From the NCBI GenBank assembly GCA_951406725.2, contig OX597823.1:105710001-105774000 (forward strand): DNA of 64,000 nucleotides. Reading direction: 5' to 3'. The notes below the pieces were generated by a model. It did no database searches. It saw only the letters and a list, made by a program, of their open reading frames with translations, and was not told where the DNA came from. Position 1 is the stretch's first letter. Each line of letters starts with the position of its first letter. Of this stretch, positions 1,045 to 63,900 are shown piece by piece. The translations under genes were made by a program, and so were the position numbers. The stretch comes from Octopus vulgaris (Eukaryota).

Positions 1045-1272
1045 ACAGTTATTATCATTATTATCTCCCTTTCATCCATCCTATTTTTTATTGTCATATC
1101 GCCATGTTGGACTGTTGAACTCTGCATATTTTCTCTCTCCGTTTGTTCATTCTTTCTCCGTTATTTTTTCTCTTAATCCTTTCTGTCGAAGAGCGTAAGC
1201 TCGAAGCGTAAAAGACTTTTTCATTTTTCCCGAGCGTTAAACAGCTTGTTGTTCCTTCACCTGTCTTCGTCC
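1045..1272 (+). mobile_element. Putative Penelope-like element terminus with hammerhead-like fold
   Basis: Contains CTTT-CTGTCGAA-GAGC(GTAA)GCTC-GAAG-C-GTA-AAAG (1179-1214). Its 3' part (TTGTTGTT..CACCTGTCTTCGTC) matches the reverse complement of the (TA)n-adjacent fragment at ~62495-62553. Confidence 0.45.
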
Positions 1273-1643
1273 TGACTGCGGCCATGCTGGAGCAGTTGCT
1301 TTAGTCGATCAAATGGACCCTAGGACTTTTTCTTTGTAAGCCTAGTACTTATTCTATCGGTCACTTTTATCGAATCGCTAGTTTACGGGAACGTAAACGC
1401 ATTAACATCGGTTGTCAAGCGATGGTAGGAGACAAACATGGACACAGAAATACATACATATGTGTGTGTGTGTATATATATATATGGGCTATTTTTACTT
1501 TCCAATATCAATTTCTCTCACAAGGCTTTTCGTCGGCCCGCGGATATAGTAGAAGACACTTGCTCGTGGTGCCACGCAGTGGGACTGTACCCGGAACCAT
1601 GGGGTTGCAAAGCAAGCTTCTTACCGCATAGCCACTCCTGCGC
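1273..1643 (-). mobile_element. SINE family A, near full-length
   Basis: Reverse-complement match to 17492-17926 over both modules, with the internal microsatellite. Confidence 0.85.
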
Positions 1644-4600
1644 TGATGTATATGTGTATATTTGTCCTCCTCCACTAACTGGTGTTGACTTTTTTATGCC
1701 CCCATAACCGCTAAGAGGTGCCCCAGCATGGCCGCATTCCAGTGACTGAAACTAAACAAAACAAAAATTACGTAGGTGTTTATATACATACATACATACA
1801 TACATACATACATACATACATACATACATATATATATATATATATATATATATATATATATACATAGACACATATATTGAGCGAAAGAGACAGAGGCACA
1901 GAAAGTGAGAAGAAAAGGGAGACAGAAGGAGTGAGGGAAGAAGAGAGAGAAGGAAAGAGAGAGGGATATAGGGTGAGATATGGAGAGAGAGAGGGGGGGA
2001 GAGAAACGTATGGAGAGAAGGAAACAAATACACAAACTGCTAATGTGAAGAGATAATATACATGCCGACATAGTGAAATACGCGCATGGAGCAGAAGTGA
2101 GGTAAATAGTGTGCGAGAGAAGGAGGGAGATGGAAAGAGAAGAGAGCGAGAGAGACTGAATTCAGGTATGCAGTAATAACCAACTATCTTGATGAAAAGA
2201 CAGACAGACACATCACAAGAGAGGTGTTTAACGCTTGTTTGCTGAGGGTAACTGTCTGCTGTAGTGGCTGAAACAATCAGTTACTTTGGGTAGTTTTGGT
2301 TAAAAAAAGAATTGTAGTATCAAAGAGAGAGAGAGAGAGAGAGAGAGAGAGAGAGAGAGAGAGAGAGAGAGAGAGAGAGAGAGAGAGAGAGAGAGAGATG
2401 AAGGTAGGAAAGAAGGAGAGAGAAAGAATGATTTCTAGATAATATTATAATACTGTCTGTACCAGTTGTATTGTGGAACTGTCTAGCTTGTTATGTGTTT
2501 GTTAGTTCTTAGTGGAAATGGCTTTTGTAGCTTAAGAGAACCTTCTAAAAAGTAAGTTATAAAAGAGTTATAATATGGCTATTTATGCCGTTATTACTTG
2601 ATCGGAAACTCTAACAACTCGTCAGAGAAATCGGAGTTGGCCGCCATTATATTACACGTGTTACAGATGGAAAATATATATTTCAGGTTATATGTGTATA
2701 TGTATTTCGATAAATATACACACTTACACATACATGCATGCATACATACATAAACATACATGTATATATATATATATATATATATATATATATATATATA
2801 TATATATATATATATATATATATATATATATATATATATATATATGTATATATATATATATATATATATATATATATATATATATATATATATATATATA
2901 TATGTATATATATGTATATATATATATATATATGCTGTAAATATATGATTTACAATATATATATAAATATTTATATGTTGCTTAAATAGGCCAATGCAAT
3001 TACATATGTATGTGTGTATATAATAAAAACTATATGCAATCATACATACATACATACATACATACATACATACATACATACATATATATATATGTGTGTG
3101 TATATATATATATATATATATATATATATATATATATATATATATATATATATATACGTATGTAAATATATGCATGTCGATTTCTTTGAATGTATGTGTA
3201 AACCTATAAATTTACTAATGTTATCAGATAAGCTAGCATTCTTCTTAAACATTAGTGACTATACACAAACATAAATATCACATATACGTAACACATACAC
3301 ATGCATACACACGTATATACATGTGCATGTGTATAGAAACGCATGTGTGTTTATATATGCGTTTTCATGTGTAAATGTGTGTATGAATATGTATGCATAA
3401 AGACGTGTGCGTGTGTGTGTGTGTGTATCAGTGTATCTGTGTGTGTGTTGTGCGTGTTTGTATGTGTGTATGTGCTGTATGTGTTTACAAGCAAGAAAAC
3501 CATTTGTATGTTGAAATTATAAATCAATCTAAATGGAAAGCAAACTTTGGTCTGCTGTGGTAAAAATATGTATATCTATTCATAAAGTTGTAGGAAAGTA
3601 TATATTGATAGAAAGGATTAGAAAAATTTGTGTTCTCCTAAAAGGTAAAATATAGGTATATGCAAGCAATACCCGACTAACGTGCTTCCATTGTAAACGG
3701 TTGCAGTTGCGTAATAACTGAAGCGATGACCACGTTAAGGCTAAAGTCTATTGTATTGGGCAATATTTTTGCAGTATAATTCAAAGGGACAGGATCGTGC
3801 CTGGTCTGTAAGCAAGGGAGTTCTCTGATCTTCAGCCATATCTAAACCAAACTCTTTCAGGTCATTGAACAAACGTAAGACCGAACAATAGAAGAAAGCA
3901 ACTAGATTACCTAGCTATGCATTAACATACGTGACATTCTCCCAGCTTCACAAGAAGCCAGGTTTCTACATGTATACCGGCATTTATGTGTATATGTGTG
4001 TATATGAGAACGTGTCTATGTATTTATACGTATGTATCTACGTACGATTATGGGCATGTATGTGTATACGTCTATGTATGTATCTAAGATGCCAAGTGTA
4101 TGCATAGATATGTTTTGGATTTATGTGTGGGTTTCTTTTTAAGAATGATTATGCAGTTGCGTTCGCGTATGCGTGTGTATGTGTGTGTGTGTGTGTATAC
4201 ATATATTTGATTTACATAGACATACATACACACACACATTCACTCACATATATGTTCATAGACACTCATATATGTTCGCGTGTATATTTAATTATGAGCA
4301 TATATATGCATATACACAGATTTACAGGTACATATATATATATACATACACACACACACACATATATATATATATATATATGTACATATGTATATATATA
4401 TATATATATATATATATACACACACACACACACACACACACATATATATATATATATATATATATGTACATATGTATATATATATATATACATACACACA
4501 CACACACGCATGTGTATAGATGTAATTTATATGTGCATGTGCACATGTTTATATATAATATACAAATGAGTATGGGTATCAATATAAATAAAAATTTAGG

Positions 4601-60728: not shown

Positions 60729-60986
60729 GATAGATAGATGGATAGAGATAGATGATAGATAGATAGATAAATAAATAGAAAGATAGATAGATAGTTAGAT
60801 AGATAGATAGATAGATAGATAGATAGATAGATAGATAGATAGATAGATAGATAGATAGATAGATAGATAGATAGATAGATAGATAGATAGATAGATAGAT
60901 AGATAGATAGATAGATAGATAGATAGATAGATAGATAGATAGATAGATAGATAGATAGATAGATACTTAGATAGATAAATAGATAG
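60729..60986. repeat. (GATA)n tetranucleotide microsatellite
   Basis: Directly visible; complementary (TATC)n tracts at ~30595-30692 and ~31248-31383. Confidence 0.97.
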
Positions 60987-63900
60987 CTTGAAAATGGAAG
61001 ACCATTTAGACAACGACCAGATCGAGTGTTCAAGATGCGGTGGATGGAGAAACGTAAGGCGACAGTAGCCTAAATGTACGACAGCAGAAGAGTAAGAGGA
61101 AAAAAATAACATGAGGGGGACAGAAAGACGAAATAAAGGACACTTTTGTTAAGATGGAATATATGGTTTTCGCTGCAATATGGGTTTTGCCATAAAAACT
61201 GTGGGCAATGGCTGTGAATGATAGGCTAAAATATGGCTGTGTATGTTCCTGTTAGAATATCTCTGTGTATCGGTATAAGTGTTTGTATTTATGAGTATGT
61301 GTGTGTGAATGTGTGTGTGTGTGTGTGTGTGTGTATATAGATAAGGTAGTTGTGAATGACGGAGTGTACGTCTATTCGTTGGTTTATGCCTGTATGCATA
61401 TATATGTATATGTGTGTATATTTATTCACATACACGCACACACACACACATATATATACATACATACCTCCATGTATAAGTAACCTTTTGCACATTTACA
61501 TGTATACATATATGCATACTCACACCCACATATAAACGCCTACACGTACCTGTGTATAAATTGTGTATGTTTGTCAATATATAACTATATGCACGTCTGT
61601 TAGTATATATACATATTAATGTATGTATGCATGCATATATATGTGTATATATTTATATAAACATATATATACTTACATATGTATATATATGTATATATGC
61701 GCAGATAATTCTCTGTCTCTTTGCATGTCCTCCTTTCTCTGTCTCTTTTCTTCCTCCATATTCCTCTCTCAATATATGTTGGCATATATTTATATTTTTG
61801 GATATATATATATATATATATGTTTGCGTGAGTGTACATATACATATGCATATAATGAATGCATAGATAGATAAATAGATACATACCTGCCTGCATGAAT
61901 ATTAATAAATAAATATATATATGTGTATATATATATGTATATATATATATATATATATAAATATAAATACATATATATGCATATATATATATATATATAT
62001 ATATATATATATATATGTATGTATGTATGTATATATATATATATATATATATATATATATATATATATATATATATATATATATAAATATAAATATACAT
62101 ATATATATGATTATATATATATACGTATATATACTCACAGACACACATATAAACCTGTCTGTGTGCGTCTAATACTATTGATACTTATGTATACGTCTGT
62201 GACTGAGTGTGTTACCGTGTTTGTGATTTTAGATCCACGTGTGTGCATTCATGTTGCCTTGAGAATTACTCAGGAGAATGTGACTGTTTGTGGTTCATGC
62301 TTTGCAGACCGTTTCAGAGGCGTAAGGACAATCCAAAAATATTTACATTGAAAAACCTCAAAACATGTACTTATACACACACACGCACACAGAAACATAT
62401 ATGTATATATATATGCTCATATATATAAACATGTGTTAATATATGCATATATATTTCTATATGTGTGTATTTATATATATATATATATATATAGATGGAA
62501 TTTACAAAAAAATAACAAAAGACGAAGCCAGGTGTATAAACAACAAACAGGTGTTAATGTATTTATATTTGCATATGCATATATTCATGTATATAGATAT
62601 ATGTATGTATACATTTCTATATACCTCTTTGTATTCGTATGAATGAATAAAGTTATAATTTGTCTACATGTAGAAAATAACGTGTATGTATATATATCTA
62701 CACATTTATTAAGTTTGCCCACTTTCATATATGCAACCACATAAACATATACACTCACACACATATAACAAGCCCCACTCACACACACATACACATATGC
62801 AAATTAGCATGAAAATATTTGTAGGCTCATCAACTTGCAAGTACCTAGGTGCTGAATGCAGAAGCATGCATCCCTATTGGCACACAAGCACTTGGAGAGA
62901 CAGACATACGTGCACATCTATGCCTACATATACGTACATATACGGATATATTCACGCAGCTACTCGCTTTTGTAACATGAACATAAATATACGCGTATAA
63001 ACATTCATACTCGCCTTGCTAATATTTGTATTTGCAACAGTGCTTGTACACACACACACACACACACACACACACACACACACACACACACACACACACA
63101 CACACATATATATATATATATATAGAGAGATAGATATACAAGTTTACACACACTTATACATATTTGCGTCTGTATATATGCGTTTATATATGGGTATGCA
63201 TATGTACAAATATGAGCATATATATGTATTTAAATATACATACATGCACATAAATACACACATATATATATACTCAATAGATACATATCCAATATATATA
63301 TATATATATATATGTGTGTGTGTATATACACGCTCACATATAGTTTCCTAGAAACAAAGAAAAATTATGCCTGTGAAGTAGCAGTAATATAGCAAGATAG
63401 AATGTATGTGTGTGAGAGAGAGAGAGAGAGAGAGAGAGAGACAGACAGACAGGCAGAGAGAGAGACAGAGACAGACAGAGACAGAGCCAGAGACAGAGAG
63501 AGAAAGAGAAGGCAAGAGAGGGAAAGAGAGAGAAAACGACACAGAAGAAGAGTGTTTAGGATACGAGTGTGTACATATGGTAAATAATAAGTAAAAATTT
63601 ATAAATAAAATCTATCCCCAGTGACAACAACAATATCATCGTAAACAAAATCAAGAACATCACCCAATGAAAACAACAAGAAGAACAACAGTTCTATGGG
63701 CAAACGCCGGCGAAGTATTCGCGAAAGCGAAAGAAGAGATGAAGACCAGGAAAAAATATATATATAGAATCGAGGGGAACAATTTAACACAAAAAAAGAG
63801 AGAAAGAAATACAAATAAAACTTCAGCAGATGCATGGTTATGGCACTGGTGGAGGTATTTGGTGAAGTATTCCTTCCACATCTGTTTGGATAATGTAACC

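What the first reader, a model, noticed from the sequence alone, without database searches (positions are those of the whole stretch)
1045..62553. Window-wide pattern: about ten hammerhead-like islands from several families, mostly beside (TA)n
Seen, beyond the four above: half-motifs at 2590-2625 (-; CTGACGA plus a 7-bp stem II), 12423-12434 (+; GAAA-CAGCTG-TA), 13891-13950 (-; CCGATGA...GAAA-TAC-GGCTAT-GTA-TT), 18886-18936 (-; TTC-CTGAAGA...AAACATT...AATG-TC-GAA), 34243-34297 (-; stems I and III present, core missing) and 54493-54538 (+). Most are within ~200 bp of a TA-rich tract, and no PLE ORF is visible in the window. Established: some PLE clades insert into microsatellites and carry hammerheads. 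Inference: a diverse, high-copy population of ribozyme-bearing (TA)n-targeted mini-retroelements that could put many self-cleavage sites into long introns.
Basis: partly seen in the sequence, partly recalled or inferred. Interest (0 to 1): 0.75.

Follow-up and report, generated by a model that had tools for sequence, protein, structure and literature searches.

The report
Penelope-element hammerhead stubs at TA repeats
Seven of the eleven sites are short copies of repeat families, likely cut-down ends of Penelope-like jumping genes, that mostly end at TA microsatellites and carry all, half or none of a small hammerhead RNA motif of a kind already described in octopus; lone copies likely cut poorly, and the other four sites look no better than chance.

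Summary
The pattern is real but of a known kind. The window holds 3 complete type I minimal hammerheads (13700+, 40959-, 47199-); 100 shuffles give a mean of 0.01. Four more sites belong to hammerhead-bearing repeat families: 1179 (degenerate), 12423 and 34243 (3' halves) and 62494 (tail only). The other four named half-motifs (2590, 13891, 18886, 54493) have no relatives and stay at chance level. In 1.4 Mb sampled across the genome there are 62 complete motifs (0-2 in shuffles), about 124,000 extrapolated, in about 18 families. (TA)n lies within 200 nt on the 3' side for 33 of 55 (background 12%), on the 5' side for 10 of 55. They are not stand-alone mini-elements where a parent was traced: two families lead to Hydra-clade Penelope-like ORFs, one intact (840 aa, telomerase-like fold), and one to a Neptune-like endonuclease. 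Hydra elements with hammerheads in (TA)n are published, including one from Octopus. New details: the scale, a 1,845-nt intron ending 9 nt before helix I (the window copy is spliced), and an abundant A6U-core family. No evidence for a host intron or for cleavage. This scan found the same kind in other genomes.

The parts
985..1272 (+). Family C copy (old; 3' region of a Neptune-like PLE). It probably extends 5' to about 690 and is cut off at 1272 by a SINE-like repeat.
   Evidence: 40 other places at 75-85% identity; nhmmer E 7e-18 for 1148-1272; GIY-YIG-type ORF remnants upstream in L263 and L279
1179..1214 (+). Degenerate minimal hammerhead of family C: A6U core (family trait) and GAAA>GAAG (this copy)
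12382..12632 (+). Family D copy (pLTR of a Hydra-clade PLE), 5'-truncated inside the long loop II; keeps the 3' strand of stem II, GAAA-CAGCTG-TA (12423-12434) and the 3' end at (TA)n
   Evidence: 40 other loci at 92-97%; CUGANGA half in longer copies; PLE ORF downstream in L246
13686..13772 (+). Family B copy between two TA runs; complete type I hammerhead at 13700-13737 with palindromic helix III
34195..34308 (-). Family E copy: about 17 nt of inverted tail joined to a copy truncated inside stem/loop II; CUGANGA absent, GAAA-CTCGGAG-TT kept; TA on both sides
40862..41151 (-). Family A copy (young Hydra-clade PLE pLTR): spliced join of exon 1 (41011-41151) and the hammerhead exon (40862-41010); 3' end at (TA)n
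   Evidence: 96% and 99% to the two sides of the 1,845-nt GT-AG intron in L252; copies at 99% identity genome-wide
40959..41001 (-). Complete type I hammerhead of family A with palindromic helix III
47186..47246 (-). Family F copy between two TA runs; complete type I hammerhead at 47199-47245
   Evidence: 8 hits in 1.4 Mb
62494..62556 (-). 3' tail of family C without the hammerhead, abutting (TA)n
2590..2625 (-). Unverified half-motif (CTGACGA plus 7-bp hairpin); chance level
13891..13950 (-). Unverified motif (CCGATGA...GAAA plus helix III, helix I broken); chance level; its 3' string also occurs in a SINE-like repeat
18886..18936 (-). Unverified motif (CTGAAGA...GAAA, 3-bp helix I, irregular helix II); the best of the four singletons, possibly an old copy
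54493..54538 (+). Unverified; no CUGANGA; chance level

Best explanation
Seven of the eleven sites are short copies of six repeat families that carry a minimal type I hammerhead motif near their 3' end and mostly end at (TA)n; three of the families (A, C, D) trace to Penelope-like element coding sequence and the other three likely do, so the sites are likely 5'-truncated retrotransposition products rather than independent mini-elements. Shown: family membership, 3' polarity to (TA)n, inverted second copies with a short tail, an intact 840-aa ORF with Hydra-clade motifs between two terminal repeats (family A), and an intron that is present in the parent and absent from the window copy. Inferred from known PLE biology: the RT/GIY-YIG protein nicks a (TA)n tract, primes reverse transcription at an AT-rich site 13-200 nt downstream of the hammerhead, and usually stops after 60-500 nt. 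The hammerhead would serve the full element by cleaving as a dimer between its two terminal repeats. Solo stubs lack that partner and would cleave weakly or not at all. The other four sites are likely chance or too decayed to assign.
For: Complete motifs: 3 in the window against 0.01 in shuffles; 62 in 1.4 Mb against 0, 0, 0, 2. Polarity: 33 of 55 within 200 nt of (TA)5+ on the 3' side (background 0.122, p 6e-17), 10 of 55 on the 5' side (p 0.13); one per stretch, 29 of 43 against 10 of 43. Family A: 99% identical copies; both orientations in 21 of 29 loci; of 52 ends, 24 run into TA and at least 23 into a fixed tail. L252 has exon 1, intron, hammerhead, tail, an 840-aa ORF and a second repeat. 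The ORF has RIKWK, DKT, YRDD, CxCx5C, YIG, CxxC and CxH, the Hydra traits listed in PMC8557442 section 11, and its model (pLDDT 81) has telomerases as the top 8 PDB matches. Family D leads to a broken ORF 56% identical over 238 aa. Family C has Neptune-type endonuclease remnants upstream. Helix III strands of all three complete motifs self-pair, -6.4 to -12.8 kcal/mol.
Against: Parents of B, E and F were not found, so some could be non-autonomous families; many B copies start at the same point. Pfam found no RT or GIY-YIG in the 840-aa ORF and its profile found nothing in the PDB by sequence. The endonuclease call rests on motifs and on a 37% match to a fragment with a sub-threshold GIY-YIG hit. 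Clade is assigned by motifs, not by a tree with reference elements. A SINE-like repeat is as TA-adjacent (64-65% on one side), so part of the association may come from shared landing sites or later microsatellite growth. No cleavage or expression data.
Confidence: 0.85

Rival explanations
1. The islands are non-autonomous, retrozyme-like mini-elements that move as units using a PLE protein.
For: Many family B copies are about 85 nt with TA on both sides and a similar 5' start; F copies are about 60 nt. A tandem array of 7 hammerheads with a period of about 355 bp exists elsewhere in the genome (L067). Retrozymes have been proposed to derive from pLTRs (bioRxiv 2026.07.22.740005).
Against: A, C and D continue into PLE coding sequence. 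B and F have longer versions upstream or downstream. 5' ends vary and often carry an inverted copy. Top hits are biased to TA-flanked short copies because my queries included those ends. No window copy is a tandem monomer.
Confidence: 0.25
2. The motifs act on host transcripts: about 10^5 hammerheads put functional self-cleavage sites into long introns and shape splicing or RNA decay.
For: Density is high, about 44 complete motifs per Mb. Family F can form a 4-bp helix III as a monomer. Family A copies are young and intact.
Against: No host gene was established in or near the window. 33 of 56 motifs are solo and 19 of 56 lie by an inverted copy that would pair with them in a transcript. A single minimal hammerhead gave no detectable cleavage and dimers gave low cleavage (PMC4209133). 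The most abundant cluster includes an A6U core, and changes at position 6 gave low activity (A6C, PMC3088659).
Confidence: 0.1
3. All islands are chance matches in an AT-rich, microsatellite-rich window.
For: True as far as can be told for 4 of 11 sites. TA tracts are dense here: 198 in the window against 85 per 64 kb in the sample. None of the folds tested is more stable than shuffles (z -0.5 to 1.0).
Against: 3 complete motifs against 0.01 expected; family evidence for 7 sites; position 7 of the core varies freely while its neighbours are kept.
Confidence: 0.03

Closest known systems
Hydra-clade Penelope-like elements (Craig et al. 2021, PMC8557442), including Hydra-1_Obim from Octopus bimaculoides
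   Same: C-terminal GIY-YIG-type domain, RWK/DKT/CxCx5C motifs, (TA)n insertion, type I hammerhead near the 3' end, 5'-truncated and inverted copies with a tail. Family B's helix I and helix III match the architecture listed for Hydra-2_aMil.
   Different: Families A and D have other hammerhead sequences than Hydra-1_oBim, which is listed as having no pLTR. Family A has two terminal repeats, a 1,845-nt intron and 99% identical copies. About 18 hammerhead families occur in this genome.
[quoted passage not shown]
   Same: Type I, short helix I, palindromic helix III, often an extra base between A9 and helix II, mostly solo, some pairs on opposite strands 100-700 bp apart; intron end next to helix I as in Drosophila virilis Penelope.
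   Different: Number (about 124,000 extrapolated, against about 4,000 and 9,000 reported for coelacanth and Xenopus with another descriptor); loop II up to about 95 nt; an A6U core family not seen in the parts read.
Non-LTR retrozymes (Cervera and De la Pena 2020, PMC7229834; bioRxiv 2026.07.22.740005)
   Same: Type I hammerheads in non-coding animal repeats, PLE-related, up to about 120,000 copies in axolotl.
   Different: Retrozymes are tandem monomers of 150-450 bp. The window copies are solo or truncated and three families have coding parents. Only L067, outside the window, looks like a retrozyme array.
Neptune-clade PLEs
   Same: Family C and several sampled families have a CX2-5CxxC linker and GIY-YIG remnants upstream of the hammerhead and end at microsatellites.
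   Different: Only decayed fragments were seen and no RT was recovered for family C; its core is A6U.

Membership tests
Type I minimal hammerhead (13700, 40959, 47199) | CYGANGA, GAAA and UH core with helices I, II and III | tested here: met
   shuffles mean 0.01
Type I minimal hammerhead (13700, 40959, 47199) | Palindromic helix III allowing a dimer | tested here: met
   self-duplex -7.4, -6.4, -12.8 kcal/mol
Type I minimal hammerhead (13700, 40959, 47199) | Self-cleavage | not testable with these tools
   no raw RNA reads offered
Type I minimal hammerhead (2590, 13891, 18886, 54493) | Complete core with three helices, or a family that has one | tested here: not met
   the searches miss very old families
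Penelope-like element (family A parent) | Single ORF with telomerase-like RT | tested here: met
   840 aa, YRDD; top 8 Foldseek PDB hits are telomerases, E 1e-9 to 3e-8; Pfam negative
Penelope-like element (family A parent) | C-terminal GIY-YIG endonuclease | tested here: inconclusive
   YIG motif; 37% over 128 aa to a fragment with Pfam GIY-YIG E 0.0014, below cut-off; 1 of 10 homologues hit GIY-YIG weakly
Penelope-like element (family A parent) | pLTR repeats, 5' truncation, inverted 5' copy with tail | tested here: met
   (21 of 29 loci with both orientations)
Penelope-like element (family A parent) | Spliceosomal intron near the hammerhead, retained in some copies | tested here: met
   GT-AG, 1,845 nt; 43 spliced joins and 26 GT donors among fetched loci, counts biased by the queries
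Hydra clade (families A, D) | RWK motif, DKT, CxCx5C linker, CxxC and CxH in the endonuclease | tested here: met
   A: RIKWK, DKT, CTCRDKSNC, CYLC, CRH; D: RIRWK, DKT, CNCRIRENC, CSLC, CLH; definitions
Hydra clade (families A, D) | Insertion into (TA)n | tested here: met
   A 24 of 52 ends and D 8 of 17 ends run into TA; most other A ends continue into the element's tail
Hydra clade (families A, D) | Phylogenetic placement with reference Hydra RTs | not tested
   reference sequences were not on hand as tool-given sequences
Neptune clade (family C) | CX2-5CxxC linker before GIY-YIG; RT placement | tested here: inconclusive
   decayed endonuclease remnants in 2 of 25 loci; no RT recovered
Non-LTR retrozyme | Tandem monomers each with a hammerhead | tested here: not met
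   no tandem copy among the window sites; 11 of 56 sampled motifs are tandem, 7 of them in one array

The most novel reading that the evidence does not exclude
In this genome the PLE hammerhead is not a working 3' terminator. Inserted ends lie 13-200 nt beyond an uncut motif, and one lineage reached tens of thousands of copies with an A6U catalytic core. The motif would then serve as a dimerisation or circle-forming module, possibly switched by splicing of the intron that ends 9 nt before helix I, and cleavage may be dispensable for spread. The young, intact Hydra-type family A is a ready system to test this.
Probability: 0.25. Interest if true: 0.55.

Novelty: new member of a known kind. Interest (0 to 1): 0.3.

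Why it matters
What PLE hammerheads do is still open (PMC8557442 says so). This genome offers a young Hydra-clade element with an intact ORF, spliced and unspliced copies, and a natural core variant at high copy number, which makes the question easier to test. The roughly 10^5 stubs also matter for repeat annotation: they sit between TA tracts and could be filed as unclassified SINEs or MITEs. A host-regulatory role is not supported by anything here.

Tried and rejected
Rfam scan of the window: the 150 rows shown of 812 are microsatellite-driven miRNA and snoRNA matches; the other 662 were not seen, so it says nothing about hammerheads. RF00163 on the genome: 6 matches among 73 scored candidates, none in the window; the model misses these minimal forms. 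The repeat finder was swamped by microsatellites. A first descriptor requiring a 2-bp helix III hairpin missed 40959 and 47199. MFE folding does not single out any site. In one search the target structure for family F was mis-specified, so its active-fold energy was discarded. A weak resemblance of 2590(+) and 54493(+) to family E was not convincing, and no complete family E motif was among the nhmmer queries. Pattern hits for 13891 turned out to be a SINE-like repeat; the pattern for 18886 found only itself. RNA: no RNA holder listed on record and no raw reads; contigs of 4 runs gave no cover on a candidate exon at 25960-26420, which proves nothing. Splicing was not checked in RNA. No host exon was identified in 80 kb of flanks by ORF listing. 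Four of the five family D loci extended (L247-L250) gave no PLE ORF. A recalled PMC id was the wrong paper; the 2017 paper on dimer-cleaving PLE hammerheads is recalled only and was not read.
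Full report
Setting. The window is G000:C10:105,710,001-105,774,000 of a 2.8-Gb genome. An octopus-like host is inferred from the names of protein homologues (Argonauta, Octopus). About 17% of the window is simple repeat, with 198 (TA)5+ tracts against 85 per 64 kb in the genome sample.

Are there hammerheads? A type I descriptor (CYGANGA, helix II, GAAA, hairpin or palindromic helix III, UH, helix I) finds 3 complete motifs: 13700-13737(+), 40959-41001(-) and 47199-47245(-). 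100 shuffles that keep microsatellites in place give a mean of 0.01. In 140 stretches of 10 kb, taken at round coordinates over 30 contigs, it finds 62 canonical motifs and 11 with the core CTGTNGA; four shuffles give 0, 0, 0, 2 and 0, 1, 0, 0. That extrapolates to 124,000 canonical motifs (bootstrap 86,000-168,000), or about 108,000 loci after clustering all 73 hits at 1.5 kb; 7 of the 62 are one tandem array. The 73 hits fall into 20 clusters, two of which look like chance singletons.

The six named half-motifs. Two are real. 12423-12434 lies in a 250-bp family (40 other loci at 92-97%, 1,452 candidates) whose longer copies show CUGANGA, a 9-bp helix II around a loop of about 95 nt, then GAAA-CAGCTG-TA; the window copy is cut inside the loop. 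34243-34297 belongs to family E (8 hits in 1.4 Mb). The other four (2590, 13891, 18886, 54493) found only themselves, had no hit in the sample, and fit descriptors that fire in 45-100% of 200 shuffled windows. The 13891 string recurs in a SINE-like repeat without CUGANGA. The genome search needs long shared words, so very old copies cannot be excluded; 18886 is the best candidate. The sites at 1179-1214 and 62494-62556 are a degenerate hammerhead and a bare tail of family C.

(TA)n. In the window 10 of 11 sites are within 200 nt of (TA)5+, against 33.6% background, but they were chosen by eye. In the sample, 33 of the 55 canonical motifs with enough flank have (TA)5+ within 200 nt on the 3' side (background 12.2%) and 10 of 55 on the 5' side (p 0.13); counting one per stretch gives 29 and 10 of 43. 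The distance is nearly fixed within a family. Control: two anchors in one SINE-like repeat type show 64% and 65% on one side and another repeat shows 5%, so TA adjacency is real but not peculiar to these elements.

What they are. Family A has copies at 99% identity. 21 of 29 loci carry an inverted partial copy, and the ends run into TA (24 of 52) or into a fixed tail, the layout drawn for PLEs in PMC8557442. Locus L252 holds the parent: exon 1, a 1,845-nt GT-AG intron ending 9 nt before helix I, the hammerhead, the tail, an intact 840-aa ORF and a second repeat. The window copy is the spliced join, which is direct sequence evidence of an RNA intermediate. The ORF has the Hydra-clade motifs of PMC8557442; 35 of its 40 homologues have DKT and 26 have CxCx5C. 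Pfam and a PDB sequence profile found nothing, but the predicted model (pLDDT 81) has telomerases as its top 8 matches. Family D leads in L246 to a broken ORF with the same motifs, 56% identical over 238 aa; four other extended loci did not. Family C (75-85% identity) has Neptune-type endonuclease remnants upstream in 2 of 25 loci. Parents of B, E and F were not found.

Family C core. 18 of 20 sampled copies have U at position 6 and 2 have A, position 7 varies freely, and a sister family keeps A6. 21 hits in 1.4 Mb suggest about 40,000 copies. A search for hammerhead with A6U or core variant listed 4 papers, none on an A6U hammerhead by its listing. A6C gave under 0.1 per minute in PMC3088659. 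The effect of A6U is untested.

How it likely works. Shown: anatomy, polarity, splicing, parent ORF. Inferred from PLE biology: nicking of (TA)n and target-primed reverse transcription from an AT-rich site downstream of the hammerhead, with early termination and a second, inverted priming. Inserted ends lie 13-200 nt past the motif, so the template was not cut at that hammerhead, or was a circle. Helix III strands are self-complementary, as expected for dimer cleavage between the two repeats of a full element. For host transcripts, 33 of 56 complete motifs are solo, 19 have an inverted copy and 11 a tandem copy within 1 kb, and a single minimal hammerhead did not cleave in vitro (PMC4209133). 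No host gene was established and sampled strands are even (36 plus, 37 minus), which without annotation says nothing on introns.

What is known. Widespread solo minimal hammerheads from truncated PLEs, opposite-strand pairs and an intron ending at helix I: PMC4209133 (parts 1-2 of 4 read). Hydra clade with (TA)n insertion and hammerheads, including Hydra-1_Obim from Octopus bimaculoides: PMC8557442 (passages, section 11, supplement search and part 2 of 59). Recently active PLE families in an octopus annotation, with no mention of ribozymes or Hydra in the main text: PMC13282606 (part 1 of 3 and a term search; supplements not read and may hold these families). Retrozymes: PMC7229834 (passages) and bioRxiv 2026.07.22.740005 (part 1 of 5; supplements closed). 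PMC3088659: passages. Searches for print on octopus hammerheads. Earlier notes of this scan report the same kind in other genomes; they were seen after my reading was formed.

Verdict. Observation partly confirmed (7 of 11 sites), interpretation partly supported, new members of a known kind, interest 0.3.

Noticed in passing
L252:1636-6432 (G000:C4, about 127.71 Mb): Apparently complete Hydra-clade PLE: intron-containing pLTR, hammerhead, intact 840-aa ORF with an Asn-rich insert, second pLTR; family copies are 99% identical, so it may be active.
   Followed up: yes
L067:2272-4548 (G000:C1, about 20.00 Mb): Array of 7 identical hammerheads with a period of 353-359 bp, 5 on one strand and 2 inverted; retrozyme-like.
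   Followed up: no
family C, e.g. L120:2871-2906, L171:7818-7855, window 1179-1214: High-copy hammerhead family with an A6U core (18 of 20 copies); a sister family keeps A6.
   Followed up: partly
window 35669-37225 (+): 5'-truncated non-LTR retroelement with an open 430-aa C-terminal frame, flanked by (TAA)n on both sides; looks like Dong/R4 (label recalled; Pfam zf-RVT E 8e-4). Decayed relatives at about 14600-14900, 16950-17300 and 19230-20500.
   Followed up: partly
window 29382-30400 (+): Decayed mariner transposase (Pfam HTH_48 E 3e-7).
   Followed up: partly
window 41500-41720 and 42200-42430: Inverted repeat pair of about 220 bp around about 480 bp of sequence, seen by eye; MITE-like or an inverted retroelement pair.
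   Followed up: no
window 25625-26500 (-): Gly/Ser-rich low-complexity open frames that could be a host exon; no RNA contig cover in 4 runs.
   Followed up: partly
window 606-627, 15994-16015, 40318-40339: Abundant SINE-like repeats differ sharply in TA adjacency: 64-65% on one side for two anchors, 5% for the third.
   Followed up: partly
   Followed up: partly
L257:246-958 (-): Fragments that read like a Helitron PIF1-type helicase just downstream of the window (label recalled, not tested).
   Followed up: no
L002, L003, L006: Rfam Hammerhead_1 matches of 108 nt with long inserts, further families not present in the window.
   Followed up: no
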